Source: Myxococcota bacterium (lineage in GTDB: Bacteria > Myxococcota_A > UBA9160 > UBA6930). From it: DNA of 64,000 nucleotides. A model generated the notes under the pieces. The model was not told the origin of the DNA, ran no database searches, and saw nothing but the letters and a program-made list of their open reading frames with translations. Of the stretch, positions 39,890 through 54,238 are shown one piece after another (position 1 is the stretch's first letter; each line of letters begins with the position of its first letter). The DNA lies in the NCBI GenBank assembly GCA_030065975.1, contig JASJCN010000008.1, positions 1,047 through 65,046 of the forward strand, in the 5' to 3' direction. The position numbers and the translations under genes are program-made.

Positions 39890-40342
39890 TCAGGGAGCGA
39901 CCAGGATCTGGCTCCGAGGCCTCCGGGGCGGGCGCGCCGCCCTCCCCCCGAAGACGCGCACCGCGTGGTAGACGTAGTCGGCCCGCGGCTTGGGCATCCC
40001 GTCCTCGAGGCAGATCAGCCACAAGAGCACGTCCGCCGGCTTGCGCCGTCGCCCCGGGAGGAGCCGCTCGCGCATGAGCTGGTAGCAGGCATCGTGGACC
40101 AGCGAGCCGCGCAGGAAGTCCTTCGTGTCGATGGTCGGGCCGCTCGGGCCGTCCCATGCGTAGCCCTTCTTCAGGGTGAGGCGCCCGCTCCGCGTGAGCG
40201 AGACCCAGCCGCCGGGGCTCACCACCCGCTCCGGGAGCTCCCAGCCCGTCTCGTGGACGTAGCGCTCCATGAGCTGGTACTTGTAGTCGCCGAGCTCGCG
40301 ATACCGGATGGATGCCGCCAAGGCTGCGCCCTCCCCTTCCAA
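39890..40342 (-). CDS. DUF1353 domain protein
   Basis: LTLKKGYAWDGPSGP ... SLVHDACYQL resembles the DUF1353 core. TTG start (ATG alternative downstream). Confidence 0.6.
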   Translation of the reverse strand: MEGEGAALAASIRYRELGDYKYQLMERYVHETGWELPERVVSPGGWVSLTRSGRLTLKKGYAWDGPSGPTIDTKDFLRGSLVHDACYQLMRERLLPGRRRKPADVLLWLICLEDGMPKPRADYVYHAVRVFGGRAARPPRRPRSQILVAP

Positions 40343-40419
40343 CGACTAGCAGAGCGAGCGGGAGAGCGCTCCATCGCAAGCGAAGGACGGTGCGGGCGAA
40401 GCCGCTGTTAGGCGAGCCC

Positions 40420-41265
40420 TCAGGCCGGAGGCTGCTCGTCCTTGCCCAGGGTCAGCACCTCGACCCCGTCCTCGGTCACCAGGCAGGAGTGCTCCCACTG
40501 GGCCGAGAGGCTGCCGTCGCTCGTGAGCGCCGTCCAGCCGTCGTCCTGGATCTCGGTCTTCCAGTGGCCGAGGTTGATCATCGGCTCGACGGTGAAGGCC
40601 ATCCCGGGGCGCAGCTCGTCGCCCGAGCCGGGCGTCCCGTAGTGGAGGATGGTCGGCGCCGTGTGGAACTCGCGGCCGAGCCCGTGTCCGGTGAACTCGC
40701 GAACCACCGAGTAGCCCTGGGCCTCGGCGAAGGACTGGATGGCGTGGCCGATGTCGCCCGTGCGCGCGCCGGGCTTGATGGCGCGGATGCCGAGCCACAT
40801 GGCGTGCCAGGTGTCGGCGGCCAGGCGACGCGCCTTCGGGGCCACGTCGCCGATCAGGAACGTGCGCGAGGTGTCGCCGTGGAAGCCGTCGACCACCGGG
40901 GTGACGTCCACGTTCACCATGTCGCCGTCACGGAGCACGTGGCCCTCGTCCGGAATGCCGTGGCAGACCACGTCGTTCACCGAGGTACAGCAGTGGCCCG
41001 GGAAGGGCGGCGTCCCGCCGAAGCGGCCGCCGTAGCCGTGGGGGGCGCTGCGCGCGCCGCGGGCGCGGGTCGCCTCGTCCACGATGCGATCGATCTCCGC
41101 CGTGGTCATGCCCACGCGGATCTCGCTGGCCACGATGTCGAGCAGGCCCGACGCGAAGCTCCCCGCCTCGCGCATGGCGTCCTGCTCTCCCGGAGTCAGG
41201 ATCGGCGCGATCTCACCGGATCCAACGGATCGGCGGCTCTTGCTCTTGCGGCGGTTTCGCTTCAT
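40420..41265 (-). CDS. map: type I methionine aminopeptidase
   Basis: CHGIP, DMVNVDV, HGDTS, FTGHGLG, TVEPMI and WEHS metal-ligand motifs. Only the last 281 codons of the 2091-aa ORF are credible. Confidence 0.95.
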   Translation of the reverse strand: MKRNRRKSKSRRSVGSGEIAPILTPGEQDAMREAGSFASGLLDIVASEIRVGMTTAEIDRIVDEATRARGARSAPHGYGGRFGGTPPFPGHCCTSVNDVVCHGIPDEGHVLRDGDMVNVDVTPVVDGFHGDTSRTFLIGDVAPKARRLAADTWHAMWLGIRAIKPGARTGDIGHAIQSFAEAQGYSVVREFTGHGLGREFHTAPTILHYGTPGSGDELRPGMAFTVEPMINLGHWKTEIQDDGWTALTSDGSLSAQWEHSCLVTEDGVEVLTLGKDEQPPA

Positions 41266-41284
41266 GGGAACTCGGAGGATAGGC

Positions 41285-41305
41285 GTCGCAGGGGAGCCCT
41301 GCGAC
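41285..41305 (-). other. 9-bp-stem hairpin between the carboxylase stop and the map start
   Basis: GTCGCAGGG-GAG-CCCTGCGAC, perfectly paired. No U-tract. Possible processing or termination element. Confidence 0.4.
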
Positions 41306-41366
41306 CCGGCACCCGAACTGGTATCGGCACCCCTGGCCGCTTCCTGTCGGGTTCCGCAGGGCTTCC

Positions 41367-44300
41367 TCAGGGCCCCTCGTCCAGCCTCTCGATCAGCCAG
41401 CGGCGCATCTCGGCCGGCGGCACCAGGGTCTCGATGGACCCGACGTCGCGGGCCCGCTCCACGGAGTGGATGGCGTCGAACTCGGCGGCGAGCTCCGCCT
41501 GCTTCTCGAGCGTCACCCCGGCGAGCTTCTGGGCGAGCTCCGCCTGATCCTCGCTGCGTCGGCTGCGCGCCGCCCGGGCGCGGAGCTCGCGCACGCGGGG
41601 GTCGGCTTCGGCCCGGGCCTTCACCTCCCGGCCGAAGACGGCGGTCGCGGCCGCGCTGCCTCCGATCACCGATGCGTAGGATCCCGTGAGTGCCGCCACG
41701 CGCAGGCGCGGGTTCAGCGAGCGCGAGAAGACCACGTAGGCGCCGCCGTGGTAGCGGGACACGACCAGGAAGAGGATCGGCCCGCGGAACTCCGTCACGG
41801 CCCGCGCGATCTCGGCGCCGTACTCGAGCTGCAGCTTGCGCATCGACTCGGGGGAGCCGTCGAAGCCGGAGAGGTTCGCGAGCACCACGGCCGGGCGGCT
41901 GCCGCTCGCCGAGCGCAGGGCGCGCGCCACCTTCTTCGACGAGCCGGGGAAGAGGGTTCCGCCGTTCCACTCGGCGGGGCCGTCCACCGGCCGGTGTCCC
42001 TGGCGAGCGATCGCCTGGCTCTCGATCCCGATGAGCGAGACGGCGTGGCCGCCGAGCCGCGTCTCCCACACGATGGCCGTCTCGGCCCCGACCCAGTCCT
42101 CCCAGCGCTCGAGGCGCGGCGCGTCCTCGTCGACCACCGCCGCCATCACCGAACGCATGGGGAAGGGGCGCTTGCGCGCCGGGTTCGTCTCGTCGTCGAA
42201 GATCTCGCCCACGGTGCGGAAGCCGCAGGCCGCGTCTTCGACGGGCGCGAGGCAGGGATCGCGGTCGATCGGGTCGACGCTCTCCTGACGGCGCGGCCCG
42301 GACTCGCCGGGCACCACGTAGGTGATCTCGTGGTGGGCGTGGAGGATCCGCAGCGCCTCTCGCAGGTCGCGTGCGCGCACCTGGGCCTCGCCGTTCGGGC
42401 CCATCACCCGCTCGTGCCCACCGATCGCGATCTCGTCCTCGGCCGAGACCGACCCCGAAGCCTCGAGGGCCGCTCGCCCGGTCAGCACCATGGAGCCGCC
42501 CTCGGTCATGATCAGGATGCCCTTGGTGGTCTGACCCATCGTCGCCAGGGCGTCGAAGTAGCTCTGGGCGCCCACGTTCACGCCGGAGACGATCACGTGG
42601 ATCACGCCGCCGCGGCCGGTGAACTCGACGATGCGGCGCACCACACGGGCGGTGGCGTCGAGGTTCTCGGTCCCGCTGTCGAGCGCGATCCTGGCGCCGC
42701 TCGAGATCGGCACCCAGTCGACGGGAACGCCACGCTCCTCGGCGAGATCGAGGGCGGCCACGATGCGGTCGCACTCGGCGTCGGCGAGGGAGCCCATGCC
42801 CCGGGTCGGATCCGACAGCAGCAGCACGCGTTCCATGCCTTCGGGGATCCCCTCGGTGGGCGTCCGGATCAGGCCGAACACGACGCCCGCCTCGTTTCCG
42901 CCGTAGGAGCGCTCGGCCACGCTGCGCGGGCGGTTCGAGGGCGCGTCCTCGTCGAGGTCGTACTCCTCGAAGCTTCCGGCCGGGATCCCGGCACCGGTCT
43001 CCGGCGCCGTGCCGACGGCGTTCTGGCCGGCGGCGCCGGTGAGCATGCGGATGATCTCGTAGGGATACACGAGGCGGCGACGGCGGGCCTCGGCGACCCG
43101 ACGCTCGCTCTCGTCGGCCGGCTCGAGCGGCGCGTCGCGCGCGTCGCGCCAGTCGACCGTCAGGTTCTGCCCGCTCACGTCCGAGATCACGACCTCGAGA
43201 TCGCGCGCGGGACGCTCGGGCGCCTCGGGGTCGAGCAGGTGCAGCCGCACCAGCACCTTCTCGAGGCCCAGGTTGCGCGTGGCCGGCGCCAGCCTCGAGA
43301 TCAGCTGGGAGACCGTCTCGCGGGGGAGCTCGATGTCCGGGATCACGTGGATCGCGATGCGGTTCCACTGCAGCCGCCGCTTCGGGTCGCGCAGGCCGAG
43401 CTGCAGACGCAGCGTACGGGTCGCCTCGTTGAAGACGTGCTCGAAGGCCGGCACGTGGAGCCGCGCCTCGGTTCCGAGGTCGGGCGTCCGGCTCCGTACC
43501 TCGGCCAGCACCACGATGCGCTCGTCCGAGGGCAGTGCACGGCTTCGCGCCGCGAAGCCGTAGACGTCGTCGCGAGCGCTCAGGAGCTCGAGATCGAACT
43601 CGGCGAGCCGTCCCAGGCCGACCCGTTCGCTGGCCGCCGGGTGCACGCCCCGGAGCGTCTCCTCCAGCCGGTAGCCCTCGGGCGAGGGCACCAGGGTCTG
43701 GTGGGGCGGCTCGCCGGCGGGCGCCACCAGGGTGCGGGTGAAGCGCGCGCACGGAAGCCCGTGACCGAGGGCCACGGCGCAGTCGGAGAGCGAAGTCGCC
43801 GCCTCGGGATCGCCCCGCACGAAGAGCTCGATGGCGAAGGCGGCCGGCCACTCGTGGTTCTCGCGCTCGCGCTCGGCCGCCTGGACCAGGCCCGCGAGCG
43901 CGTTCTTCTCGTTGCCGGCCTCGCACGTGCCGGCCAGGATGGTGCGTCCGCCGGGCAGATCGAGCCGCTCGATCCAGCCGCCCTCGACCTGCACCGCGGC
44001 CTCGCGCGAGGGGATCGCGGGCGCATAGAGCCTTCGCACGTGGACCGAGAGCGCGATCGAGCGGCGCCGCGGGTCGGGGTCGGCGAGCCAGCGACCGACC
44101 CGCTCGAACACCGGCGCCGGCGCATCGGCCAGCTCCCGCAGCACGAGATCGGGCGGCGCCGTGGGCTCGGCCTCGGCCGCCTCGAGCCAGCTCGCCAGGG
44201 CCTTGCTCGCGTGCTCGGCGCGATGGCTGGCCTGGGGCCCGTCGAAGATCACGTAGCGCGCCTCGATGGCCGCATCGGCGACCTCGTGGCCCACCGTTCC

Positions 44301-46970
44301 GCGCAGCGTCGCGATCCGACCGAGCGCCGCCTCGAGAGCGCGCGCGTCCTCCAGGTGCTGCCCGCTCCGCGCGAGCGCGGTCACGTGGCGCAAGAGCGAC
44401 GCCACCAGCCGGTCGCGTCGCTGGGGCACGCGCTGGGAGGCCAGCAGGCGCAGGAAGGCGCGCTCGAGGGCGTCGCTCGGCTCGAGGCTGTCGACGCCGT
44501 AGTGGGCGAGCGCGCAGCGCACGCGATCGAGGAACGCCTCGTCGACGCCCGAGCCCGCCGCGTGGATGCGGCGCGCCACCTGCTGCAGACGCGCGTAGTT
44601 GGACGGGCCGGTCGATCCGGAGACCGAGGTCTCCGGCGAGCGGACGAAGAGGCTCGCCACGTCGGCGAAGAGCACGAGCTCCTCGCGCAGGCCCGAGAGC
44701 TGGCTGCCGAAGCGCTCGGGCAACGACTCGGGGAGCGGCGCATCGAGGAGCCGGGCCAGGCTCTCGGTGCGCTCGGGGTCCGCGTCGTAGCCCATCAGCA
44801 CCCGGCGGATCTCGTCGCGCATGGCCGACACGGCCGCGCGCCGCGCGTCCTCGCCCAGGCCACAGGCCGAGGCGAGATCCGGCGTGCCGAGGGGGTTCTC
44901 GTCCGCGGGCCGGAACAGCGCCGCGATGGGATCCGCCTCCTGATGGAGCTCGAGGGCCTGTGCCTTCGGCGCCTCGGCGTCGGTCTGACTCTCGGCGGCG
45001 TCGATCACCAACACCACCTCGCCAGCCGCCACCTGTTGGCCGCGAGAGACGCGGATCTCGCTGACCACGCCGGTGATCGGCGCGTCGAAGCCGACCTCGA
45101 CCTTCATCGCCTCGAGCAGCCCCAGGCGCTGGCCCGCCCGCACGCTGTCGCCGGGCTGCACGTGGATGGCCACCACCAGGGCGGGCGCGGCCGCGCGGAC
45201 CTGCCCGGCGGACTGGAAGCCGAAGCGGTAGGGCACGCCCTCGATCTCGACGCGGACGCCGGCCTCGCTCACGTCGTGCAGCACCCGATGGGAGGCCCCC
45301 ATGGCCTCGAGGCGGGCGGCGTGTGCGTCCTCCTCGCGCAGCCGGACGTGCACGACGCGGTCGTCGAGCCGGACGCGGTAGCGCCAGGCTCCGAGCGCCA
45401 GCACCTGGAGACGCACCTGCTGGCCGCCCTGCTCGAGGTCGACGTCGAGGCCGCTCGACACCGGGATGCGATCGCCCGAGGCCAGGCTCGGGTCGGCGTA
45501 GAAGTTGATGCGCTGGGCGGCGCGGCGCTGCTGGTAACGCAGGATTGCGGCGGTCACGAGGGCGAGGGCCTGGCGCTCGGGGTCGGCGGCGACCACCGGC
45601 GTGCGGTCGAGCCAGGCGACGTCGACGCCGCCGGCGCGGAAGTCCGCGTGGTCCAGGATCGCGGCCAGGTAGCCGCGATTGGTGGTGCCTCCCTCGACCA
45701 CCACCTCGGTGTCGGAGAGCGCGGCCGCGAGACGTGCGCGCGCGGCCTCGCGCGTGTCGCCGACGGCGATGATCTTCGCGATCAGCGAGTCGAACGCCGC
45801 GGGCACGACGCTGCCGGCCACCACGCCCGTGTCGATGCGCAGGCGCGGCCCGAAGGCGGGATCGAAGCGCGCCACGCGGCCCGGCGCCGGCAGGAAGCCC
45901 GCGGCCGGATCCTCGGCACACAGCCGTACCTCCATGGCCGCGCCGGACTCGCGGATCTCGAGATCCGCCAGGCTCTCGCCCCTCCCGATGCGGATCTGCA
46001 GCTCGACGAGATCGAGGCCGGTGAGCGCCTCGGTGACGCCGTGCTCGACCTGCAGGCGCGGATTCATCTCGAGCAGGTAGTAGTCGTCGCCGGCCACGAG
46101 GAACTCGACGGTCCCGGCGCCCTGATAGTCGACGGCCCGCGCGAGCTGCACGGCCGACTCCTCGAGCCGTGCGCGCAATCCCGCGGAGAGCCCCGGCGGC
46201 GGCGCCTCCTCGACCACCTTCTGGTGTCGCCGCTGGACCGAGCAGTCGCGGCAGCCGAGAGCGTGCACGTTCCCGTGGGCGTCCGCGACGATCTGCACCT
46301 CGACGTGGCGCCCGCCGTCGATGCGGCGCTCGAGGAAGAGGCGGTCGTCCCCGAACGCGGTGCGGGCCTCCGAGGCGGCCGACCGGAACGCCTCTTCCAG
46401 GCCCTCGGACGTCTCGACCATCCGGATCCCGCGCCCTCCCCCGCCGGCGGCGGCCTTCACGACCAGGGGATGCCCGAGCCCGGCGGCGGCCTCGCGCGCC
46501 GCCTCGAAGTCGGACACCACCCCGCCGCTCCACGGGATCACGGGCACGCCGGCGGCCTCGGCGATCTCCTTCGAGCCCACCTTGTCGCCCAGGCCGCGCA
46601 TGGCCTCGGGAGAGGGGCCGAGGAACACGATGCCGGCCGCGCGGACCCGCTCGACGAAGCGCGCATCCTCGGAGACGAAGCCCCAGCCGGGCCACACGGC
46701 GTCGCAGCGCGCGCGCAGCAGCGCATCGATCAGTCCGTCGTGATCCAGCCAGGCGGCGGTGTCGCCGTCGGGCGCGTCGAGTCGGAAGGCGGCGTCCGCG
46801 TGGCGCACGAAGGGGGCGTCGCGATCCACGTCCGTGTGGAAGGCGATGCCTTCGAGCGGGAGGCCCTCCCTGCGCCGCAGTGCCTTCAGCGTGCGCAGAC
46901 AGCGCATGGCGGGCTCGCCGCGATTCAGGATCCCGACGCGGCGGAGCGTCCGCGTGCCGGAGTCACTCAT
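41367..46970 (-). CDS. single-chain multidomain biotin-dependent carboxylase (BC - BCCP - central region - carboxyltransferase), acetyl/acyl-CoA carboxylase-like, 1867 aa
   Basis: ATP-grasp biotin carboxylase motifs (VVKAAAGGGGRGIRMV, EMNPRLQVEH). Biotinyl motif LEAMKVE with Lys at codon 623 (45102-45104). Long linker region, then a two-lobed carboxyltransferase (SSGARIALDSG ... VSRYHGGAYVV). Confidence 0.9.
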   Translation of the reverse strand: MSDSGTRTLRRVGILNRGEPAMRCLRTLKALRRREGLPLEGIAFHTDVDRDAPFVRHADAAFRLDAPDGDTAAWLDHDGLIDALLRARCDAVWPGWGFVSEDARFVERVRAAGIVFLGPSPEAMRGLGDKVGSKEIAEAAGVPVIPWSGGVVSDFEAAREAAAGLGHPLVVKAAAGGGGRGIRMVETSEGLEEAFRSAASEARTAFGDDRLFLERRIDGGRHVEVQIVADAHGNVHALGCRDCSVQRRHQKVVEEAPPPGLSAGLRARLEESAVQLARAVDYQGAGTVEFLVAGDDYYLLEMNPRLQVEHGVTEALTGLDLVELQIRIGRGESLADLEIRESGAAMEVRLCAEDPAAGFLPAPGRVARFDPAFGPRLRIDTGVVAGSVVPAAFDSLIAKIIAVGDTREAARARLAAALSDTEVVVEGGTTNRGYLAAILDHADFRAGGVDVAWLDRTPVVAADPERQALALVTAAILRYQQRRAAQRINFYADPSLASGDRIPVSSGLDVDLEQGGQQVRLQVLALGAWRYRVRLDDRVVHVRLREEDAHAARLEAMGASHRVLHDVSEAGVRVEIEGVPYRFGFQSAGQVRAAAPALVVAIHVQPGDSVRAGQRLGLLEAMKVEVGFDAPITGVVSEIRVSRGQQVAAGEVVLVIDAAESQTDAEAPKAQALELHQEADPIAALFRPADENPLGTPDLASACGLGEDARRAAVSAMRDEIRRVLMGYDADPERTESLARLLDAPLPESLPERFGSQLSGLREELVLFADVASLFVRSPETSVSGSTGPSNYARLQQVARRIHAAGSGVDEAFLDRVRCALAHYGVDSLEPSDALERAFLRLLASQRVPQRRDRLVASLLRHVTALARSGQHLEDARALEAALGRIATLRGTVGHEVADAAIEARYVIFDGPQASHRAEHASKALASWLEAAEAEPTAPPDLVLRELADAPAPVFERVGRWLADPDPRRRSIALSVHVRRLYAPAIPSREAAVQVEGGWIERLDLPGGRTILAGTCEAGNEKNALAGLVQAAERERENHEWPAAFAIELFVRGDPEAATSLSDCAVALGHGLPCARFTRTLVAPAGEPPHQTLVPSPEGYRLEETLRGVHPAASERVGLGRLAEFDLELLSARDDVYGFAARSRALPSDERIVVLAEVRSRTPDLGTEARLHVPAFEHVFNEATRTLRLQLGLRDPKRRLQWNRIAIHVIPDIELPRETVSQLISRLAPATRNLGLEKVLVRLHLLDPEAPERPARDLEVVISDVSGQNLTVDWRDARDAPLEPADESERRVAEARRRRLVYPYEIIRMLTGAAGQNAVGTAPETGAGIPAGSFEEYDLDEDAPSNRPRSVAERSYGGNEAGVVFGLIRTPTEGIPEGMERVLLLSDPTRGMGSLADAECDRIVAALDLAEERGVPVDWVPISSGARIALDSGTENLDATARVVRRIVEFTGRGGVIHVIVSGVNVGAQSYFDALATMGQTTKGILIMTEGGSMVLTGRAALEASGSVSAEDEIAIGGHERVMGPNGEAQVRARDLREALRILHAHHEITYVVPGESGPRRQESVDPIDRDPCLAPVEDAACGFRTVGEIFDDETNPARKRPFPMRSVMAAVVDEDAPRLERWEDWVGAETAIVWETRLGGHAVSLIGIESQAIARQGHRPVDGPAEWNGGTLFPGSSKKVARALRSASGSRPAVVLANLSGFDGSPESMRKLQLEYGAEIARAVTEFRGPILFLVVSRYHGGAYVVFSRSLNPRLRVAALTGSYASVIGGSAAATAVFGREVKARAEADPRVRELRARAARSRRSEDQAELAQKLAGVTLEKQAELAAEFDAIHSVERARDVGSIETLVPPAEMRRWLIERLDEGP

Positions 46971-47620
46971 GCCGCGGCCTCGAGCGCGCCGATCGCGCAG
47001 GCCACGAAGCGGCCGTGATGCGAGAGCGAGAGCGGGACGCGGCAGACGTCCGGCTCGCGAGCGGAGCCCACGTCGTCGTTCGAGGCGGCGGTCGTTCGGA
47101 AGGGTGTCCGCACCAGGGTGGGAATCCGATCTTCGCGTTCGACGCGCAGAGCTTCGCCGGGAAATCGCGTCCTGGCCATGGCCAGCGCGAGAGCCCGGGC
47201 CGACTCGGAGGGGCAGGCGCCGGGCCGGATCCGCTCCGCGGCGACCTGGGTGGCGCCTCCGACCCAGGCGTGCACGCGCTCGGCGTCGATCCGGGCGAAG
47301 ACGGGGAGCGAGAGCCCCGACACGCGGACGTCGCCGCGAAGCAGCGAGGAGACCCGCGGGCGAAGCCGGCCCCGGAGCGACACCTCGAAGCCCCGTGGGT
47401 GGAAGGGAAGATCCGGGCGCTGGCGGCGTAGCGCCTTGAAGGCCGCCTCCTTCGCCGCCCAGTGCGCCCAGAGCGAACGCTCCCGGCAGGCGGACGCCTC
47501 GATCGAACGTCGTTCACGATCTCCGAAGACGCGCCGCTCGAAGCGCGGATGGCTCGCGCCCGGTCGCGCCTCGGGGTCGCGCAGATCCACCACGTCGTTT
47601 CCGATGAGCGGCCGGGTCAC
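46967..47620 (-). CDS. 4'-phosphopantetheinyl transferase (Sfp-type)
   Basis: IGNDVVDL and WAAKEAAFKAL signature motifs. GTGA overlap upstream and ATGA overlap downstream. Confidence 0.85.
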   Translation of the reverse strand: MTRPLIGNDVVDLRDPEARPGASHPRFERRVFGDRERRSIEASACRERSLWAHWAAKEAAFKALRRQRPDLPFHPRGFEVSLRGRLRPRVSSLLRGDVRVSGLSLPVFARIDAERVHAWVGGATQVAAERIRPGACPSESARALALAMARTRFPGEALRVEREDRIPTLVRTPFRTTAASNDDVGSAREPDVCRVPLSLSHHGRFVACAIGALEAAA

Positions 47621-48387
47621 GAGCCCGGCTCCGGGGCGCCGAGCACCTGCTCCTCCATCTCGGAGAGGCGCCGGGTGATCTGGCGCGCGACCTCGACCGA
47701 GGCGCGCAGCCCCCGGCGATCGCTCTTCGGCTCGAGGGTCACCGCGGAGACGTGAAAGCGCTCGCCCCTCTTCGGCAGGGACGACCAGCTCTGCTGGGAG
47801 TGGCCCCGCAGGTACAGGCACAGCACGCGGCAGTCGGGGACGGCGCGAACCAGTCGCCCGACCCCCCACGCGCCCGACTTCGGATCCACCCGCCCGCTGC
47901 GGCTGCGTCCGCCCTCGGGAAACATCAGCACCGGGTCGCCGCGCTCGAGCACGTAGCCCACGCGCGCCAGCGTCTTCGCCACGTCGCTGCGGTCGCCGCC
48001 GCGGGTCACGGGGAGACAGCGCGCCATCCAGGCGAGCGCCCGCTGCCAGAAGCCGTGGGCGAAGTTCCGCGTCTCGGGTGTGTTCCACGGAATCGAGGAC
48101 GGCCTGCGGAGGAAGCTCCCGAGATCACCGAGCGCCCAGGCGATCAGGAACGAGTCCACCAGGGTCAGGTGGTTCGCACACACCATGATCGGCTGGGACG
48201 ACTCGCGCCGCAGGCGTCGGAACAGCTCGCGGGTCTCGTCCGCGCCCTCGAGCTTCCAGCCGCGGCTCCGCATCCAGATCAGGCAGAGCGTGACCCAGAG
48301 CGGCGCCAGGACGGCGGAGGCGTGGCGTTGGATGGCCAGGGCTCGAAGCTCGCCCCGACCGAGGGGCTCGGTCATGGTGGATCCCAT
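47617..48387 (-). CDS. PlsC-type 1-acyl-sn-glycerol-3-phosphate/lysophospholipid acyltransferase
   Basis: NHLTLVD (HX4D) and FPEGGRSRSG motifs. Start at 48387 or 48375. Confidence 0.85.
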   Translation of the reverse strand: MGSTMTEPLGRGELRALAIQRHASAVLAPLWVTLCLIWMRSRGWKLEGADETRELFRRLRRESSQPIMVCANHLTLVDSFLIAWALGDLGSFLRRPSSIPWNTPETRNFAHGFWQRALAWMARCLPVTRGGDRSDVAKTLARVGYVLERGDPVLMFPEGGRSRSGRVDPKSGAWGVGRLVRAVPDCRVLCLYLRGHSQQSWSSLPKRGERFHVSAVTLEPKSDRRGLRASVEVARQITRRLSEMEEQVLGAPEPGS

Positions 48388-48447
48388 TGTCGGGAGGACG
48401 CGGGAGAAGGCGGAAGTCTAGGCTTTGCCGGGCGGCGCGCCCGGAGC

Positions 48448-48696
48448 CTACGAGAGACGGGCCGCGATCAGGCGCACGCAGTCGCCGAGGGTCTCGACGT
48501 CGTCGACGTCTTCGTCCGCGATCTCGATGTCGAACTCGTCCTCGAACGCCAGGATGACGTCCACCAGGCGCGCCGAGTTGACCTTGAGGTCGTCGAGGAT
48601 CTTCGTGGTGTCGGACCGCTTCGCGAACGCGTCGGTGTCCTTCACGTAGGGCTCCAGGATCTTCGCCACCCGCTCGCCGATCTGTGCAGACTCCAT
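48448..48696 (-). CDS. acyl carrier protein (atypical NSA in place of DSL around the phosphopantetheine serine)
   Basis: 82 aa, acidic. LDDLKVNSARLVDVILAFEDEFDIEI aligns with the ACP helix II region. AAGGAGAG RBS. Confidence 0.85.
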   Translation of the reverse strand: MESAQIGERVAKILEPYVKDTDAFAKRSDTTKILDDLKVNSARLVDVILAFEDEFDIEIADEDVDDVETLGDCVRLIAARLS

Positions 48697-48730
48697 CGTT
48701 CTCTCTCCTTGCTCTTCTGGTCGTTGGTTC

Positions 48731-48766
48731 GGACCCGTCGGGCCCGTCAGGCCCGTCGGGCCCGTC
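48731..48766. repeat. four tandem 9-bp repeats (minus strand CGACGGGCC-type) spanning the ketosynthase stop codon
   Basis: Plus strand GGACCCGTC GGGCCCGTC AGGCCCGTC GGGCCCGTC. It encodes the C-terminal RRARRA and continues past TGA 48747-48749. Confidence 0.9.
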
Positions 48767-50024
48767 GAAATGCCACTGCGGCGTTCACGTCTCCGAACCC
48801 GAAGCCCGCCTTCACGAGGACGGGGGCTTCCATGGGTCGCGTCTCGCGCACGATGCTCGACTCGAACGCGCCGAGCTCCGGGTGCAGGTCCTCGCAGTTC
48901 TGCGACGCGTGCACGAAGCCGTGCTCGAGCATCACCACCGAGGCCACGGCCTCGATCGCGCCGGCCGCGCCGAGGGCGTGGCCGATCAGCGACTTCGTCG
49001 CGGTGATCGGCGGCAGGTCCTCGGGCGCACACCCGATCGCATCGGCCCAGGCACGCACCTCGCTCGGATCCGCCGCCGTCGCGGTCAGGTGGCCGCTGAT
49101 GGCGCCGATCTCTTCGGCGGAAACGGCGCCGTCGGCGAGGGCTCCGGCGATGCAGCGGCGCACGCCCTCGGGGTTGGGTGCCGTCATGCTTCCGCCGCCA
49201 CGATGTCCGCCGCAGGTCGAGGCGACCCCGACCAGCTCCGCGTGGATGCGCGCGCCGCGCTGGGCGGCGCTCTCGAGGCTCTCGAGCAGCAGCACGCCGG
49301 CTCCGGCCGCCGGCACGAAGCCGCCAGCCGAGGCGCTCATCGGCCGCGAGGCGCGCGCGGGCTCGTCGTTGAAGCCGCGGCACAGCACGCGCATGGAGTC
49401 GAAGCCCGCCCAGATGTACTCGCTCGCCCCTTCCGAGCCGCCACACAGCATGCGCTCGGCCTGGCCGGAGCGGATGCGGTCCGCACCGAGCGCGATGGCC
49501 TCGACGCCCGTCGCACAGGCGCTCGAGTTGGTGGTCACGAGGTTGCCGAGGGCAAAGAGGCCGGAGAGCCGCGCCGAGACGCCGCTCGCCATCACCTGCT
49601 CGACGGCGGTGCTGCCGAGCCTCCGCGCCTTCCCCGCGGAGACGAGGGGCACGACGCGCTCGACGATGGTGTCCATGCCGCCGATCCCCGTCCCGAGGAT
49701 GGCCCCGGCCTCCCAGTCGACCCGGTCGTCGTCGGGATCCGGCCGTTCGAGGCCCGCGTCGGTCCAGGCCTCGAGGGCGGCGAGCGCCGCGTGCCGATGG
49801 GACGAGTTCATGGCCAGCAGCTCGTCCTCGGCGAAGCTCGCCTGGCACAGCTCGTCCACGCCCTGGGGCACGCCGGCGACCTGGCACGCGAGCGCGTGCT
49901 CGGCCATGCCCGGCTGATGGCGGATGCCCGAACGGCCCTTGCGAAGCGCCAGCTCGAAGTCGGCGACGCCGTTCGCGTTGGGCGCCACCACGCCGAGACC
50001 CGTCACGACCACGCGACGTCTCAT
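48747..50024 (-). CDS. beta-ketoacyl-ACP synthase, FabF/FabB-type elongating KS
   Basis: Active-site Cys (TTNSSACATG) and two His (SGHLTATAA, KSLIGHALGAAG). ATGA overlap with the dehydratase gene. Confidence 0.9.
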   Translation of the reverse strand: MRRRVVVTGLGVVAPNANGVADFELALRKGRSGIRHQPGMAEHALACQVAGVPQGVDELCQASFAEDELLAMNSSHRHAALAALEAWTDAGLERPDPDDDRVDWEAGAILGTGIGGMDTIVERVVPLVSAGKARRLGSTAVEQVMASGVSARLSGLFALGNLVTTNSSACATGVEAIALGADRIRSGQAERMLCGGSEGASEYIWAGFDSMRVLCRGFNDEPARASRPMSASAGGFVPAAGAGVLLLESLESAAQRGARIHAELVGVASTCGGHRGGGSMTAPNPEGVRRCIAGALADGAVSAEEIGAISGHLTATAADPSEVRAWADAIGCAPEDLPPITATKSLIGHALGAAGAIEAVASVVMLEHGFVHASQNCEDLHPELGAFESSIVRETRPMEAPVLVKAGFGFGDVNAAVAFRRARRA

Positions 50025-50464
50025 CGGGAGACCTCCATCCCGGAGAGCGTTCCGGAGCAGACGAGCGCGCCGTCCTCGGTTCGCATCTCGGACTCGGCGC
50101 GCAGCTTGCCGCGCCGGTAGAAGAGCTTCTTCGAACGCACGATCACCCGCGTGCCCGGCCGCACCACGCCGGAGAAGTCGACCGCGGCATCGGTGAAGAA
50201 GGGAAGCCCGGGCTTCTCGGACTCGGCACCCAGGTACAGGGCCAGGGGCACGACGCCGGTCTGGGCCATGCACTCGATCAAGAGCACTCCGGGCGTCACG
50301 GGCTCGCCGGGGAAGTGCCCGCGGTAGAAGTCGTGGTCCTCGCGCCAGGTATAGGCCCCCACCGCGTGGTCGGCGTCGATCTCGAGGATCTCGTCGACGA
50401 AGCGGAAGGGCTCCTGCTGGGGAATCCGGCCGAGGATCTCCGCAGGGGTCGGGGGACTAGCCAC
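50021..50464 (-). CDS. FabZ-like 3-hydroxyacyl-ACP dehydratase (hotdog fold)
   Basis: RIPQQEPFRFVDEI ... FYRGHFPGEPVTPGVLLIECMAQ motif. GTG start overlaps the FabG stop by 8 nt. Confidence 0.88.
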   Translation of the reverse strand: MASPPTPAEILGRIPQQEPFRFVDEILEIDADHAVGAYTWREDHDFYRGHFPGEPVTPGVLLIECMAQTGVVPLALYLGAESEKPGLPFFTDAAVDFSGVVRPGTRVIVRSKKLFYRRGKLRAESEMRTEDGALVCSGTLSGMEVSR

Positions 50465-51185
50465 CGAAGAGCCCTCCGTTCACGTGGAGCACGCTGCCCT
50501 GCACGTAGCTCGCGCCGGTGGCGAGCCAGCGCACGGCGTCCGCCACCTCCTCGGGCGTTCCCATGCGGCCCAGGGGCACCCGGGCGAGGATCGCCTCGCG
50601 CGCCGCCTCGGGGAGCTCGGCCGTCATGTCCGTCTCGATGAACCCGGGTGCCACGGAGTTGACCAGGATCGGACGCCCCGCGAGCTCCTGGGAGAGCGAC
50701 TTGGTGAAGGCGTCGAGCCCGGCCTTCGCCATGGTGTAGGCCGACTGGCCGGGATTTCCGGTGTGGCCCACCACGCTCGACAGATTGATGATGCGCCCGC
50801 TCTTCTGGCGCAGCATGAAGCGCCGGAGCACGAGCTTGGTGAGGTACCAGGTGCCTCGGGTCAGCCCCGCGACGGCGTCGTAGTCCTCGAGCTTCATCGA
50901 GGCGACGAGCGCGTTCTTGTTCACGCCCGCGTTGTTCACCAGCACGTCGACGCGCCCGCAGCGCTCCTTGAGCTCCGCGACGAGCCCTTCGACGGCCTCG
51001 GAGTCCGCGAGGTCGGCACCGATGGCGAACGCATCGGGCAGCTTGGCCGCGACCTCCTCGGCGGCGGCGGCGCTGCCGCGGTAGTGGACGGCGACCTGGA
51101 ACCCCTCGGCCCCGAGGGCACGGGCGCACGCGGCACCGATTCCTCGCCCCGCTCCGGTGACGAGTGCGACCTGGGTCTCGCTCAT
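50457..51185 (-). CDS. 3-oxoacyl-ACP reductase (FabG-type SDR)
   Basis: TGAGRGIG, NNAG and YTMAKAG (YxxxK) motifs. ATGA overlap with the KAS III gene. Confidence 0.9.
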   Translation of the reverse strand: MSETQVALVTGAGRGIGAACARALGAEGFQVAVHYRGSAAAAEEVAAKLPDAFAIGADLADSEAVEGLVAELKERCGRVDVLVNNAGVNKNALVASMKLEDYDAVAGLTRGTWYLTKLVLRRFMLRQKSGRIINLSSVVGHTGNPGQSAYTMAKAGLDAFTKSLSQELAGRPILVNSVAPGFIETDMTAELPEAAREAILARVPLGRMGTPEEVADAVRWLATGASYVQGSVLHVNGGLFGG

Positions 51186-52174
51186 GCCGACTCCTCGAAG
51201 CGCAGCAGCAGGCTCGCCCAGGTGAGGCCTCCGCCGACGCCGATCAGCGCCACGTCGTCGCGCGGCGTCCACTTCTCGAACGCCTGGGACACCACCGAGG
51301 CCGAGCCCGGTGCGCCGGTGTTGCCGAACAACGCCACGTTCGAGTGATGCAGCGCGGGATCGATCTCGCACTTGCGGCAGACGGCCTCGAGCATGCGCAG
51401 GTTCGCCTGATGGGCGACGAGATGGAGGCTCCGCTCGGGCGCCGCGTGGGCCTCGCGCAGGCGCTCGAAGCCCTCGGCCGTCTTGCGGATCGCGAACATC
51501 TGCACCGCGCGTCCGTCCTGGGAGAAGTGGCCCGTGCGTGGGACGCGCACCTTGTCGGCGCCCGCCGGGCTCGAGCAGACCTCGGTCGAGAGCACGCGGG
51601 CGCGGCCGCGCAGCCGCGGCGAGACGACGGCCGCCGCCGCCCCGTCACCCCACAGCACGGCCGCTGCGCGGTCGTCGTAGCTCGTGGTGGTGGTCAGCGT
51701 GTCGACGCCGACCACGAGCACGGCGTCGGGCAGGGTCGGCGCCATGCGGGAGAGCACGTCGAGCTGCACCAGGAACGAGGTGCACGCCGAGCTCACGTCG
51801 AAGGCCGGTGCCTCGATGCCGAGCTCCGCGGCGATGGTGCAGGCGTCGGCCGGCGTGAGCGAGCTCGGCGCGGACCCCCCGGCGACGACGAGGCCGATGT
51901 CGGACGGCGCGAGCCCCGCGCGCTCGAGGGCCATGCGGGCCGCCCGTGCGCCGAGGGCACCGTTGTCCTCGGCCGCGGCCTCGGGAGCCGCGCGCACGTC
52001 GCGATTGCGCGTCTCGCGCAGGTAGTCGAGGGGCAGCACGCTGCGGCGCGAGCGGATGCCCACGCGCTCGAGGATCCACGCGTCCGAGGTGCCGATGTCG
52101 AGCGACTCCAGGAAGGCGTTGCTGATCTCGGTCTCGGGATGGGCGTGGCCCAGGGAGAGGAGCTGCAGGCTCAA
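51182..52174 (-). CDS. beta-ketoacyl-ACP synthase III (FabH-like)
   Basis: Cys (DVSSACTSF), His (VAHQAN) and Asn (FGNTGAPG) triad. TTG start in a TTGA overlap with the reductase gene. Confidence 0.85.
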   Translation of the reverse strand: MSLQLLSLGHAHPETEISNAFLESLDIGTSDAWILERVGIRSRRSVLPLDYLRETRNRDVRAAPEAAAEDNGALGARAARMALERAGLAPSDIGLVVAGGSAPSSLTPADACTIAAELGIEAPAFDVSSACTSFLVQLDVLSRMAPTLPDAVLVVGVDTLTTTTSYDDRAAAVLWGDGAAAAVVSPRLRGRARVLSTEVCSSPAGADKVRVPRTGHFSQDGRAVQMFAIRKTAEGFERLREAHAAPERSLHLVAHQANLRMLEAVCRKCEIDPALHHSNVALFGNTGAPGSASVVSQAFEKWTPRDDVALIGVGGGLTWASLLLRFEESA

Positions 52175-53166
52175 GCGCTCACTCCCGAGACGTGCTCGCC
52201 GCCGTCGACGCGGATCACGGATCCGTTCACCCAGGCCGCCTCCGGACGCGAGAGCAGGAAGACCATGCCCGCGACGTCCTCGGGCGTGGTGAGCCGCCCC
52301 AGCGGGTTGCGCCGACGCGCGCCGGCCACGAGGCGGTCGCTGCCGGGGATCGCGGCGAGAGCCGGCGTCCTCGTCACGCCCGGCTGCAGCACGTTGCAGC
52401 GGATGCCGTGGGGGCCGAACTCCGCGGCGATCGATCGCGCGGCCGCTTCGAGGGCGACCTTCGCAGCCGAGACCGCGGCGTAGCCCTTCCAGGCCAGTGC
52501 GTTGCCCTCGCTGGTGAGGCCGAAGGTGCGTGCGTCGTCGGCGAACATCCCGCGCGCGTGCAGGTCCTGCACCCAGTCGACCAGGCTCGTTCCCATGGCG
52601 TGGATGGTGCGCGCGAAGTCCTCCGCCTCGAGCAGGCGCGGCGCGTAGCTCGGCGGCGTGGCGAGACCGTCGAGTGCGTCGTGGCCCTCACCGAAGAGCC
52701 GATCGGCCGCGGCGCGCAGGTCTTCGACCGGGATGCCCAGTGCGTCGGCGAGGGCGGGCGCCGCCTCGTCGCGAAGCGGCGCCTCGGGTGCCAGCAGCTT
52801 CAGGTTCCCGAAGGCGACCGAGTGAAGCAGCACCTTCACGCGACCGCTCTCGCCCAGTCGCTCCTCGAGGGCGTCGAGCACGCTCTCGCGGCCCTCGGCC
52901 GACAGGGCATCGACGTTGTGCGTCTGCACCACGATGCCCGCCGAGCGGAGCTTCTCGAACTCGGGCTCGACTTGACGCGCGACCGAGCGCCGGTCGCGAT
53001 GCACCAGACAGAGGTTCATGCCGTGGGCGGCGAGCTTGCGCGCGGTGGCCAGGCCGAACCCGCTCGAGCCTCCGAGCACCACGGCCCAATCGTTCTCGTC
53101 GAATCGCTGGTCCTCGAATCGGGCCGCCGGCTGGACGGCCGGACGCAGCTCGGGATCGGTCGACAA
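52171..53166 (-). CDS. enoyl-(ACP/CoA) reductase-like SDR-superfamily protein (FabV/FabL-like features)
   Basis: VVLGGSSGFGLATARKL nucleotide motif. GYAAVSAAK (Y-x6-K). The internal region resembles the FabV/TER family but the protein is shorter. TTG start. Confidence 0.7.
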   Translation of the reverse strand: MSTDPELRPAVQPAARFEDQRFDENDWAVVLGGSSGFGLATARKLAAHGMNLCLVHRDRRSVARQVEPEFEKLRSAGIVVQTHNVDALSAEGRESVLDALEERLGESGRVKVLLHSVAFGNLKLLAPEAPLRDEAAPALADALGIPVEDLRAAADRLFGEGHDALDGLATPPSYAPRLLEAEDFARTIHAMGTSLVDWVQDLHARGMFADDARTFGLTSEGNALAWKGYAAVSAAKVALEAAARSIAAEFGPHGIRCNVLQPGVTRTPALAAIPGSDRLVAGARRRNPLGRLTTPEDVAGMVFLLSRPEAAWVNGSVIRVDGGEHVSGVSA

Positions 53167-53192
53167 CTCTCAGTCCCCCTCGAAACTGACGG

Positions 53193-54194: not shown

Positions 54195-54238
54195 GCTCGT
54201 CTCCTCGCTCGCGCGGCCGGGGGCTCGGCGCGGCCTGC

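What the first reader, a model, noticed from the sequence alone, without database searches (positions are those of the whole stretch)
41367..46970. 1867-aa single-polypeptide biotin carboxylase-BCCP-central-carboxyltransferase, an ACC of eukaryote-like architecture
Bacterial acetyl-CoA carboxylases are normally made of four separate subunits (AccA-D). Actinobacterial acyl-CoA carboxylases have two subunits. Here one ORF carries a complete ATP-grasp BC domain (about aa 1-450), a BT-like linker, and a biotinyl domain with LEAMKVE (Lys 623, nt 45102-45104). A non-catalytic region of roughly 450-500 aa follows, then a two-lobed CT domain at the C-terminus. This is the domain order of eukaryotic homomeric ACC with a shorter central region. 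It ends a fatty-acid-synthase-like operon, which suggests a dedicated malonyl- or alkylmalonyl-CoA supply. The substrate cannot be read from the sequence.
Basis: partly seen in the sequence, partly recalled or inferred. Interest (0 to 1): 0.62.

Follow-up and report, generated by a model that had tools for sequence, protein, structure and literature searches.

The report
Bacterial single-chain eukaryote-type acetyl-CoA carboxylase
This is a real, intact 1867-residue bacterial enzyme that carries all the parts of acetyl-CoA carboxylase, including the large "central domain" long thought specific to eukaryotes; the kind has been known in bacteria since 2019, but this copy belongs to an undescribed deep branch and sits in a conserved second fatty-acid-synthase operon.

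Summary
ORF 41367-46970 (-) is one uninterrupted 1867-aa gene with the order BC, BT-like linker, BCCP (Lys623), central domain, CT. Codon-position GC is uniform along it. Unitigs of a marine-sediment run tile it at even depth. More than 70 independent assemblies encode collinear ~1860-aa homologues, so it is not a fusion artefact.

The middle region is a complete ACC central domain of about 650-670 aa, not a shortened one. Its AlphaFold model (pLDDT 88.7) matches only eukaryotic ACC central domains in the PDB. The CT model matches eukaryotic ACC CT domains over both lobes (TM 0.75).

The architecture is not new. Livieri et al. 2019 characterised SACE_4237, an essential homodimeric ACC of this kind in an actinobacterium.

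New here:
- The family is large (2184 clusters at 50% identity) and spans at least seven phyla.
- It splits into two deep clades. The window protein lies in clade I (Myxococcota, Binatota), not in the clade that holds the one Actinomycetota representative I could name.
- In 27 related loci it ends a conserved operon: ER-KSIII-KR-DH-KS-ACP-PlsC-PPTase-ACC.
- These genomes keep a canonical FabF elsewhere, and those tested lack AccA.

Most likely it makes malonyl-CoA, probably for the whole cell as well as for the operon.

The parts
41367..46970 (-). Homomeric acetyl-CoA carboxylase gene, 1867 aa (P0001), stop codon included
45606..46946 (-). Biotin carboxylase (ATP-grasp) domain, aa 9-455
   Evidence: Pfam Biotin_carb_N, CPSase_L_D2 and Biotin_carb_C. 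The GGGGRGIR loop, EMNPRLQVEH and EVRLCAEDP motifs are conserved in the family. PDB phmmer gives E 1e-114 to MCC alpha and E 1e-99 to E. coli BC.
45201..45605 (-). BT-like linker between BC and BCCP, aa ~456-590
   Evidence: The alignment to P. aeruginosa MCC alpha (3u9s_A) runs continuously over aa 7-657, through its BC-BT-BCCP. Similarity is weak in this stretch and the fold was not tested separately.
45003..45191 (-). Biotinyl (BCCP) domain, aa 594-656; biotin-accepting Lys623 at 45102-45104 in EAMKVE
   Evidence: Pfam Biotin_lipoyl, E 4e-13. The family consensus is EAMKME; Val, Ser or Thr after the Lys occurs in a few members.
42966..44990 (-). Central domain (CD), modelled segment aa 661-1335. 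It has a helical N half and then two alpha/beta subdomains. Invariant YPYEIIRM and WNR motifs.
   Evidence: AF2 pLDDT 88.7, pTM 0.86. All 31 Foldseek matches with E <= 0.001 (E 1e-20 to 9e-6) are yeast, Chaetomium or human ACC central domains. A profile search of the PDB finds only eukaryotic ACC CDs. Pfam ACC_central hit.
41370..42965 (-). Carboxyltransferase domain, both lobes, aa 1336-1867
   Evidence: Pfam Carboxyl_trans 1374-1856. AF2 pLDDT 83.5. The Foldseek top 50 are all eukaryotic ACC CT domains, TMq 0.68-0.75. NVGAQSY, ANLSGFDGSPES and SRYHGGAYVVFS are conserved.
46967..47620 (-). PPTase of Sfp-like length (217 aa); its stop overlaps the ACC start codon (ATGA)
   Evidence: Pfam ACPS. 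Overlap read directly. Conserved upstream of the ACC in 29 loci and in L108.
47617..48387 (-). PlsC-family acyltransferase, 256 aa, with HX4D (HLTLVD) and FPEGGRS motifs
48448..48696 (-). Dedicated acyl carrier protein, 82 aa, with an invariant LKVNSARLVDV site (Asn-Ser-Ala in place of Asp-Ser-Leu)
48747..50024 (-). FabF/FabB-like ketosynthase, 425 aa, with the Cys-His-His triad; a divergent paralogue of the housekeeping FabF
   Evidence: It scores 278 bits against the fabF cut-off of 494, while the canonical FabF on another contig scores 545 bits.
50021..50464 (-). FabZ-like 3-hydroxyacyl-ACP dehydratase, 147 aa
50457..51185 (-). FabG-type 3-oxoacyl-ACP reductase, 242 aa
51182..52174 (-). FabH-like KSIII, 330 aa, with Cys-His-Asn
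52171..53166 (-). SDR-type putative enoyl-ACP reductase, 331 aa, with the Y-x6-K motif; first gene of the operon
   Evidence: (nearest named families are FabL and FabI, below their cut-offs).

Best explanation
The gene encodes an intact, catalytically competent homomeric biotin-dependent carboxylase of the eukaryote type (BC, BT-like linker, BCCP, complete central domain, two-lobed CT).

**Mechanism, inferred by homology.**
- The BC domain uses ATP and bicarbonate to carboxylate biotin on Lys623.
- The BCCP domain swings to the CT domain, which transfers the carboxyl group to a short-chain acyl-CoA. This is most probably acetyl-CoA, giving malonyl-CoA.
- The non-catalytic central domain holds BC and CT in place, probably within a homodimer, as in yeast ACC and SACE_4237.

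**Placement and role.**
- It belongs to a large bacterial family of about 1800-1900-aa ACCs, in a deep clade (clade I) found mostly in uncultured Myxococcota and Binatota.
- It is translationally coupled to a PPTase gene and ends a conserved accessory FAS-II operon, which it feeds with malonyl-CoA.
- The tested genomes of this lineage lack AccA (G000 also AccD). Relatives keep this ACC where the FAS genes are absent. It is therefore probably also the cell's general acetyl-CoA carboxylase.

**Status of each step.** Shown: gene integrity, domain content, folds, family, operon conservation, and absence of AccA (and of AccD in G000). Inferred: substrate, oligomeric state, physiological role.
For: **Integrity.**

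**Domains and motifs.**

**Central domain.**
- AF2 pLDDT 88.7. All 31 Foldseek matches with E <= 0.001 are eukaryotic ACC central domains over about 680-730 aligned columns; the next hit has E 6e-3.
- The CD profile finds only eukaryotic ACC CDs in the PDB.
- Alignment to yeast ACC is collinear: aa 833-983 with yeast 940-1090, and aa 1099-1430 with yeast 1261-1610.

**CT.** The best sequence and fold matches are eukaryotic ACC CT (E 1e-22 against 1e-8 for PCC-beta types; TMq 0.75).

**Precedent for function.** SACE_4237 has the same architecture, is an essential homodimer and is active on acetyl- and propionyl-CoA (PMC6491548).

**Family.** 602 hits in the central-region search; 2184 clusters at 50% identity with E <= 1e-3; two clades.

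**Operon.** The same gene order occurs in 27 related loci, with 4-8-nt overlaps between most genes.

**General role.**
- No AccA or AccD in G000.
- No AccA and a single homomeric ACC in the complete chromosome G001 and in G002-G005 and G008.
- The ACC is retained without the FAS genes in L005, L007, L012, L024, the Polyangiaceae clade, L108 and L109.
Against: - No biochemical data exist for any clade I member, so substrate and oligomeric state rest on homology at about 24% identity to fungal ACC over CD and CT.
- The named Actinomycetota representative falls in clade II, not clade I, so transferring SACE_4237's properties is an extrapolation.
- G000 is only 85.5% complete, although the complete G001 supports the absence of AccA.
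- G000 also encodes six PCC-beta-type CT proteins with BC-BCCP partners and a second homomeric ACC of clade II. Any of these could be the housekeeping ACC, leaving this one dedicated to the operon.
- The operon has no malonyl-CoA:ACP transacylase. Its use of malonyl-CoA would depend on the FabD-like genes found elsewhere; both score below the fabD cut-off.
Confidence: 0.7

Rival explanations
1. The enzyme is a pathway-dedicated carboxylase. It serves only the co-encoded accessory FAS-II, possibly making an unusual extender such as methylmalonyl- or another alkylmalonyl-CoA for a special branched lipid. Housekeeping malonyl-CoA would come from a two-subunit PCC-type ACCase or, in this genome, from the clade II paralogue.
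For: - The operon is tight, translationally coupled and conserved in 27 loci.
- The housekeeping fabD-acpP-fabF genes lie elsewhere.
- Six PCC-beta-type CTs and a second homomeric ACC are present in G000.
- SACE_4237 also accepts propionyl-CoA (PMC6491548).
- Precedent from established knowledge: the mycobacterial fabD-acpM-kasA-kasB-accD6 operon ends in an ACC component.
Against: - The ACC is kept in the same synteny where the FAS genes are missing (L005, L007, L012, L024) and stands alone in Polyangiaceae and Holophaga.
- It is the only homomeric ACC, and AccA is absent, in six relatives including a closed chromosome.
- No dedicated acyltransferase for an unusual extender is present in the operon.
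Confidence: 0.2
2. [quoted passage not shown] It would activate a finished acyl chain for a Claisen-type condensation, as LCC or the mycobacterial AccD4 system does, rather than make malonyl-CoA.
For: - Single-chain bacterial carboxylases with a long-chain preference exist (LCC, as cited in PMC6491548).
- The operon contains two condensing enzymes.
Against: - LCC is a 120-kDa hexamer without a central domain, and it groups apart from the multidomain ACCs in the CT tree (PMC6491548).
- Here the CT matches eukaryotic ACC CT in sequence and fold ahead of all acyl-CoA carboxylase beta subunits.
- A full CD is present.
Confidence: 0.04
3. The long ORF is an artefact: a mis-assembly or frameshift fusion of separate alpha-type and beta-type carboxylase genes.
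For: The window comes from a fragmented metagenome-assembled genome (369 contigs).
Against: - One frame carries the coding signal throughout.
- Unitigs span the domain borders at even depth.
- More than 70 independent assemblies encode full-length collinear homologues, including closed chromosomes and a RefSeq protein (WP_320131210.1).
- The 670-aa segment between the two halves folds confidently as an ACC central domain.
Confidence: 0.01

Closest known systems
SACE_4237 of Saccharopolyspora erythraea and its actinobacterial orthologues (Livieri et al. 2019, Sci Rep 9:6725, PMC6491548)
   Same: - A single bacterial polypeptide of about 200 kDa with BC-BCCP-central region-CT.
- The central region is homologous to the eukaryotic CD.
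- The CT groups with eukaryotic ACC rather than with PCC-beta or AccA/AccD.
- The host lacks a recognised essential heteromeric ACC.
   Different: - Different phylum: an uncultured Myxococcota-like MAG from marine sediment.
- The window protein lies in clade I, whereas the Actinomycetota representative I could name lies in clade II. Identity between the clades is about 41%.
- SACE_4237 itself was not available for comparison.
- Here the gene ends a nine-gene FAS-II-like operon.
- No biochemistry exists for this clade.
Eukaryotic homomeric ACC (yeast Acc1, human ACC1/ACC2; PDB 5CSL, 5I6E, 6G2D, 8XL0)
   Same: - Same domain order.
- A complete CD with a helical N part and two alpha/beta subdomains.
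- The same two-lobed CT fold (TMq 0.75).
- Conserved BC and CT motifs.
   Different: - 1867 aa against about 2200-2400.
- The CT lacks about 200 aa of eukaryotic insertions (TMt about 0.6).
- Shorter N-terminal region.
- Only about 22-25% identity over CD and CT.
- Fungal sequences join the bacterial tree by a branch of 4 substitutions per site, outside clade I.
[quoted passage not shown] 2015, as summarised in PMC6491548)
   Same: A single-chain, multidomain bacterial biotin-dependent acyl-CoA carboxylase.
   Different: LCC is 120 kDa, forms a homohexamer, has no central domain, has a different domain order, prefers long chains and arose by an independent fusion (PMC6491548).
Mycobacterial FAS-II operon fabD-acpM-kasA-kasB-accD6 (established knowledge, not tested here)
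   Same: A type II elongation operon with its own ACP that ends in an acetyl-CoA carboxylase component supplying malonyl-CoA.
   Different: - There only the CT subunit (AccD6) is encoded, and FabD is present.
- Here the whole carboxylase is one polypeptide, and FabD is absent.
- Here ER, KR, DH, KSIII, PlsC and PPTase are all included.
Rhizobial acpXL-fabZXL-fabF2XL-fabF1XL-lpxXL cluster for the very-long-chain acyl group of lipid A (established knowledge, not tested here)
   Same: - A dedicated ACP, a FabZ-like dehydratase and a FabF-like synthase, with an acyltransferase that delivers the product to an envelope lipid.
- An LpxL-family gene lies directly downstream of the ACC in several operon variants and about 1.5 kb away in the window.
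   Different: - No ACC, ER, KSIII or PPTase in the rhizobial cluster.
- The in-operon acyltransferase here is PlsC-type, not LpxL-type.
- The link to lipid A is only a positional hint.

Membership tests
Bacterial homomeric multidomain ACC (SACE_4237 type) | One polypeptide of about 200 kDa with the order BC, BCCP, central region, CT | tested here: met
   Pfam domain order on a 1867-aa ORF.
Bacterial homomeric multidomain ACC (SACE_4237 type) | Central region homologous to the eukaryotic ACC central domain | tested here: met
   ACC_central hit; collinear phmmer pieces to yeast and Chaetomium CD; profile search finds only ACC CDs; Foldseek E 1e-20 over the whole model.
Bacterial homomeric multidomain ACC (SACE_4237 type) | CT domain of the eukaryotic ACC type (group V of Livieri et al.), not the PCC-beta or AccA/AccD type | tested here: met
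   PDB phmmer gives eukaryotic ACC CT E 1e-22 to 1e-13 against acyl-CoA carboxylase beta subunits at E 5e-9 or weaker. The Foldseek top 50 are all eukaryotic ACC CT. No tree with SACE_4237 itself was made.
Bacterial homomeric multidomain ACC (SACE_4237 type) | Orthology with the characterised actinobacterial clade | tested here: inconclusive
   The window protein is in clade I. The only named Actinomycetota representative (Acidimicrobiia, P0184) is in clade II, together with this genome's second paralogue.
Bacterial homomeric multidomain ACC (SACE_4237 type) | Homodimer with acetyl- and propionyl-CoA carboxylase activity; essential for fatty acid synthesis | not testable with these tools
   Needs protein biochemistry and genetics. 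Indirect support only: AccA and AccD absent from G000, AccA absent from six relatives.
Eukaryotic ACC (ACC1/ACC2) | Membership of the eukaryotic clade; 2200-2400 aa with eukaryote-specific insertions | tested here: not met
   1867 aa; about 24% identity over CD and CT; clade I is monophyletic (SH-aLRT 99) and excludes the fungal sequences; the CT lacks about 200 aa.
[quoted passage not shown] | About 120 kDa single chain without a central domain | tested here: not met
   A full central domain is present and the protein is 1867 aa.
Heteromeric AccABCD acetyl-CoA carboxylase | Separate AccA and AccD carboxyltransferase subunits | tested here: not met
   The CT is a fused two-lobe domain. The genome has no AccA (best 37 bits, on PCC-beta-type proteins) and no AccD (best 30 bits against a cut-off of 317).
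Housekeeping type II FAS (for the operon around the gene) | Components reach the curated equivalog scores for FabH, FabF, FabZ, AcpP and FabI | tested here: not met
   Apart from FabG, which just reaches one broad FabG subfamily cut-off, all operon proteins score below the NCBIfam cut-offs. A canonical FabF (545 bits) lies on another contig next to a FabD-like gene and an ACP.

The most novel reading that the evidence does not exclude
In a large group of uncultured Myxococcota (and Binatota), a clade I homomeric ACC has displaced AccABCD as the only acetyl-CoA carboxylase. It is co-transcribed with a second, self-contained FAS-II: its own ACP with an Asn-Ser-Ala attachment site, its own PPTase, and a PlsC-type transferase. 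An LpxL-type transferase is often adjacent, and some variants carry a FabA-like gene. This FAS-II would build a special acyl chain for an envelope lipid. More widely, the ACC central domain would be an old bacterial invention spread over at least seven phyla, and eukaryotic ACC would derive from within bacterial clade II rather than from an actinobacterial ancestor specifically.
Probability: 0.3. Interest if true: 0.6.

Novelty: new member of a known kind. Interest (0 to 1): 0.42.

Why it matters
Acetyl-CoA carboxylase is the committed step of fatty acid synthesis. The single-chain form with a central domain is the textbook eukaryotic version and a drug and herbicide target. One paper (2019) showed the form exists and is essential in an actinobacterium.

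This locus and its relatives show three further things:
- The form is widespread in bacteria (Myxococcota, Binatota, Acidobacteriota, Chloroflexota, Planctomycetota, Actinomycetota).
- It falls into two deep clades.
- In one of them it is wired into a conserved second fatty-acid synthase operon, in genomes that lack AccA where tested.

That gives compact (1867 aa), probably dimeric bacterial models for the structural role of the central domain. It gives candidates for a one-gene malonyl-CoA supply in metabolic engineering, and a better sampled bacterial outgroup for asking where eukaryotic ACC came from. Public annotation names these proteins only generically ("carboxyl transferase domain-containing protein", "ATP-grasp domain-containing protein", even "carbamoyl-phosphate synthase subunit L"), so a family model would improve many genome annotations.

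Tried and rejected
- **Frameshift or mis-assembly fusion.** Rejected.
- **LCC-type enzyme.** Rejected, because a full CD is present and the CT is of the eukaryotic type.
- **Operon as the housekeeping FAS.** Rejected. A canonical FabF above the curated cut-off lies elsewhere in all six genomes tested, and the operon proteins are divergent paralogues.
- **Obtaining SACE_4237 or full-length eukaryotic ACC sequences for a proper tree.** Not possible with the tools. The homologue searches list only the closest 120-150 hits, all bacterial. I used partial yeast and Chaetomium sequences copied from PDB alignments. They attach by a branch of 4.0 substitutions per site inside clade II, next to a Myxococcota subgroup. 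I treat that placement as unreliable (long branch, partial data, two fungi only).
- **Literature on Myxococcota homomeric ACC.** Nothing found. The library does not cover subscription journals.
- **Promoter and terminator consensus scan of 40000-54500.** Found nothing, so the transcript ends are not defined.
- **Substrate prediction from CT residues.** Not attempted beyond motif conservation, because no validated specificity rule exists for this CT type.
Full report
**1. Is it there?**

The minus-strand ORF 41367-46970 translates to 1867 residues without a stop. In this 71% G+C window many spurious long ORFs exist, so I used codon-position G+C. Third-position G+C is 0.89-0.98 in one and the same frame from 41400 to 46950, and the frame changes only at the gene's two ends. 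The ATG at 46970 overlaps the stop of the upstream gene as ATGA.

Logan unitigs of a marine-sediment metagenome run (X1, probably the source sample) tile the ORF at about 8-12x. The eight longest pieces show one mismatch in total. Single unitigs cross the BC-BT-BCCP-CD border (44341-46058) and the CD-CT border (42651-43060).

Independent assemblies settle the matter. Of 80 related loci from other genomes, nearly all encode a collinear protein matching residues ~4-1866 of this one.

**2. Domain content**

- Pfam gives Biotin_carb_N (9-124), CPSase_L_D2 (129-335, E 2e-65), Biotin_carb_C (347-455), Biotin_lipoyl (594-656), ACC_central (844-983, 41 bits against a gathering score of 23.2) and Carboxyl_trans (1374-1856, profile positions 52-468 of 493).
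- The N-terminal 657 residues align end to end with MCC alpha and PCC alpha subunits (BC-BT-BCCP; 3u9s_A E 9e-114). This supports the "BT-like linker", though weakly within the linker itself.
- Lys623 in LEAMKVE is at 45102-45104, as stated. The family consensus is EAMKME, and Val, Ser or Thr after the Lys occurs in a few members.
- The glycine-rich loop, EMNPRLQVEH and AEDP motifs of BC are conserved at 90% or more across 78 family members. So are the NVGAQSY, ANLSGFDGSPES and SRYHGGAYVVFS motifs of CT. The enzyme is therefore under selection for catalysis.

**3. The middle region is a complete ACC central domain**

The segment between BCCP and CT is about 650-670 residues, not 450-500.

- Its AlphaFold2 model, built on 67 homologues, is confident (mean pLDDT 88.7, pTM 0.86). 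It shows a helical N-terminal half followed by two alpha/beta subdomains.
- In Foldseek against the PDB, all 31 matches with E <= 0.001 are central domains of yeast, Chaetomium thermophilum and human ACC. E-values run from 1e-20 to 9e-6, with 630-780 aligned columns for the 26 full-length matches. TM normalised to the query is about 0.5, limited by hinge angles. The AC3-AC5 fragment 5cs4 gives TMt 0.60. The next hit is an unrelated repeat protein at E 6e-3.
- A sequence profile of the region finds only eukaryotic ACC CDs among 177,635 PDB sequences.
- Single-sequence phmmer gives collinear pieces: aa 833-983 with yeast 940-1090, and aa 1099-1430 with yeast 1261-1610.
- The yeast CD construct is 728 aa, so the bacterial CD is only slightly smaller.

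The CT model (pLDDT 83.5) matches human, insect, bovine and yeast ACC CT domains in all top 50 places, with TMq 0.68-0.75 and E 1e-32 to 1e-27. TMt is about 0.6 because the eukaryotic CT carries about 200 extra residues. Both CT lobes are complete.

**4. What is known**

Livieri et al. 2019 (PMC6491548) characterised SACE_4237 of Saccharopolyspora erythraea. It is a ~200 kDa homodimeric multidomain ACC with end-to-end homology to eukaryotic ACC, including the central region. It is active on acetyl- and propionyl-CoA and essential for growth. It has orthologues in many actinobacterial families, and its CT clusters with eukaryotic ACC. They distinguish it from the 120-kDa hexameric LCC.

So the architecture as such is already known in bacteria. 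I found no paper on such enzymes in Myxococcota or in the other phyla below, within a library that lacks subscription journals. No bacterial member has a solved structure in the PDB copy searched; the best PDB matches to CD and CT are all eukaryotic.

**5. The family and where this protein sits**

- A search with the central region found 602 homologues. The best 120 are almost all about 1840-1880 aa, 46-60% identical, and named, where named at all, from Myxococcota or "Deltaproteobacteria" MAGs.
- The CD profile matches 2184 clusters at 50% identity (629 at E <= 1e-30) among 1.84 billion representatives.
- Named members come from Myxococcota, Binatota, Acidobacteriota (Terriglobales, Holophaga), Chloroflexota (Ktedonobacteraceae), Actinomycetota (Acidimicrobiia) and Planctomycetota. 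All carry generic names.
- Trees of full-length proteins show two deep clades.
  - Clade I holds the window protein, which is at most 61-62% identical to any other member and sits on a long terminal branch. It also holds Myxococcota and Binatota sequences and, at the base, Holophaga and Planctomycetota sequences.
  - Clade II holds Acidobacteriota, Ktedonobacteraceae, Acidimicrobiia and a few Myxococcota. It is about 41% identical to the window protein.
- Both clades are equally distant from fungal ACC (22-25% identity over CD and CT).
- With partial fungal sequences taken from PDB alignments, the eukaryotic branch (4.0 substitutions per site) attaches inside clade II, and clade I stays monophyletic (SH-aLRT 99). 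I regard the exact attachment point as unreliable.

**6. Genomic context**

On the minus strand, upstream of the ACC, lie eight further genes:

| Gene | Coordinates | Note |
|---|---|---|
| SDR-type enoyl reductase | 52171-53166 | Y-x6-K |
| FabH-like KSIII | 51182-52174 | Cys-His-Asn |
| FabG | 50457-51185 | |
| FabZ-like dehydratase | 50021-50464 | |
| FabF/B-like KS | 48747-50024 | Cys-His-His |
| ACP | 48448-48696 | |
| PlsC-family acyltransferase | 47617-48387 | HX4D, FPEGGRS |
| PPTase of Sfp-like length | 46967-47620 | |

- Six of the eight junctions are 4-8-nt overlaps.
- The same order is found in 27 related loci spanning the deep branches of the Myxococcota/Binatota part of clade I.
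- Some variants add a FabA-like gene (133 bits) after KSIII. Several have an LpxL-family acyltransferase directly after the ACC.
- There is no FabD in the operon.
- Apart from FabG, which just reaches one broad FabG subfamily cut-off, all operon proteins score below the curated NCBIfam cut-offs for the housekeeping enzymes.
- All six genomes tested carry a canonical FabF (545-593 bits) elsewhere. In this genome it lies next to a FabD-like gene and an ACP on contig C334.

The operon is thus an accessory, nearly self-sufficient FAS-II with its own carrier protein, activating enzyme and product-transferring acyltransferase.

**7. Dedicated or general?**

Several observations point to a broader role.

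- This MAG (85.5% complete) has no AccA (best 37 bits, on PCC-beta-type proteins) and no AccD (best 30 bits against a cut-off of 317).
- Six relatives, including a closed 5.8-Mb chromosome, also lack AccA. Each has exactly one homomeric ACC, the clade I one.
- By contrast, an Acidobacteriota genome and a Binatota genome carrying a homomeric ACC do have AccA.
- Four relatives keep the flanking synteny (TPP enzyme, DinG, SDR, FabG, ACC, map) but lack ER, KSIII, DH, KS, ACP, PlsC and PPTase.
- Polyangiaceae and Holophaga have the ACC alone. Other clade I members keep only PPTase-ACC or SDR-ACC pairs.

An enzyme retained where the pathway is gone has a function beyond that pathway.

Against this, G000 also has six PCC-beta-type CTs with BC-BCCP partners. 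Unusually, it also has a second homomeric ACC of clade II (1874 aa, EAMKME). That gene is split over contigs C302 and C335, whose ends overlap by 199 nt with one mismatch, and its depth in run X1 is similar to the window's. The second copy sits between a type I PKS-like KR-DH module and a PPTase plus WS/DGAT.

So in this particular genome a division of labour is possible. I put the general-plus-operon reading at about 0.7 and the strictly dedicated reading at about 0.2.

**8. Mechanism**

Inferred from the family: ATP-dependent carboxylation of biotinyl-Lys623 at BC; swinging of BCCP to CT; carboxyl transfer to acetyl-CoA (propionyl-CoA probably tolerated, as in SACE_4237) to give malonyl-CoA. 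The CD acts as a scaffold, probably within a dimer. Malonyl-CoA would be loaded onto the operon's ACP by the cell's FabD-like enzyme. The chain would then be built by KSIII, KS, KR, DH and ER and handed by the PlsC-type enzyme to a lysolipid-type acceptor. None of these steps was tested here.

**9. Verdict**

The interpretation as a eukaryote-like ACC is right, but the class is already described. This is a new member, from an undescribed deep clade and phylum and in a conserved operon context that is itself worth following. Interest is moderate.

Noticed in passing
Same genome, contigs C302 (L110:~2900-7691) and C335 (L111:1-924): There is a second homomeric ACC paralogue (1874 aa, clade II, EAMKME, 41% identical to the window protein), split by a contig break. 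The contig ends overlap by 199 nt with one mismatch. Its neighbours are the KR + PS-DH end of a type I PKS/PUFA-like synthase, a Crp-type regulator, a PPTase and a WS/DGAT wax-ester/triacylglycerol synthase. Both homomeric ACCs of this genome therefore sit next to a PPTase in lipid-synthesis clusters.
   Followed up: partly
window 48448-48696 (-): The operon's ACP has Asn-Ser-Ala at the phosphopantetheine site in place of the usual Asp-Ser-Leu. In the 27 related operons the motif varies at only four positions (LKVNSARLVDV in 22 of them).
   Followed up: partly
L033:3232-3825; L019 within 3419-4633: More distant versions of the operon carry an extra FabA-like gene (Pfam FabA, 133 bits) between KSIII and FabG or the FabZ-like gene. 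This hints at anaerobic-type unsaturated fatty acid synthesis in the ancestral operon. The window's operon lacks it.
   Followed up: partly
window 38905-39825 (+); L028:8858-9712, L035:8552-9424, L033:13716-14573, L032:13737-14600: An LpxL-family lipid A acyltransferase gene lies directly downstream of the ACC, on the same strand, in several operon variants. In the window and its closest relatives it lies 1.5-4 kb away. This is a recurrent positional link between the accessory FAS and an envelope-lipid acyltransferase.
   Followed up: partly
P0220 (from; named): A 1995-aa protein filed under the green alga Mesostigma viride (EukProt) scores 362 bits against the bacterial CD profile and nests among bacterial clade II sequences in the tree. 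It is either contamination of the algal data set or a transferred bacterial-type ACC.
   Followed up: no
Tree (L069, L079, P0145, P0154): Partial fungal ACC sequences attach next to a small Myxococcota/Polyangiaceae subgroup of clade II (SH-aLRT 98 for the six-row set), but through a branch of 4 substitutions per site. This is likely to be affected by long-branch attraction and needs full-length, broadly sampled eukaryotic sequences.
   Followed up: partly
window 41285-41305 (-): A 9-bp G+C-rich hairpin (GTCGCAGGG-CTC-CCCTGCGAC), without a T tract, lies in the 101-nt spacer between the ACC stop and the map start codon, 20 nt upstream of the map ATG.
   Followed up: no
L107:17310-18245 (Holophaga locus): In Holophaga the clade I ACC stands alone. 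A biotin synthase-like gene (Radical_SAM + BATS) lies two genes downstream.
   Followed up: no
window 53412-54194 (-): A further SDR gene (260 aa) lies upstream of the operon, across a 245-nt gap. It is conserved in that position (58-70% identity) in the closer relatives, including those that have lost the FAS genes.
   Followed up: partly
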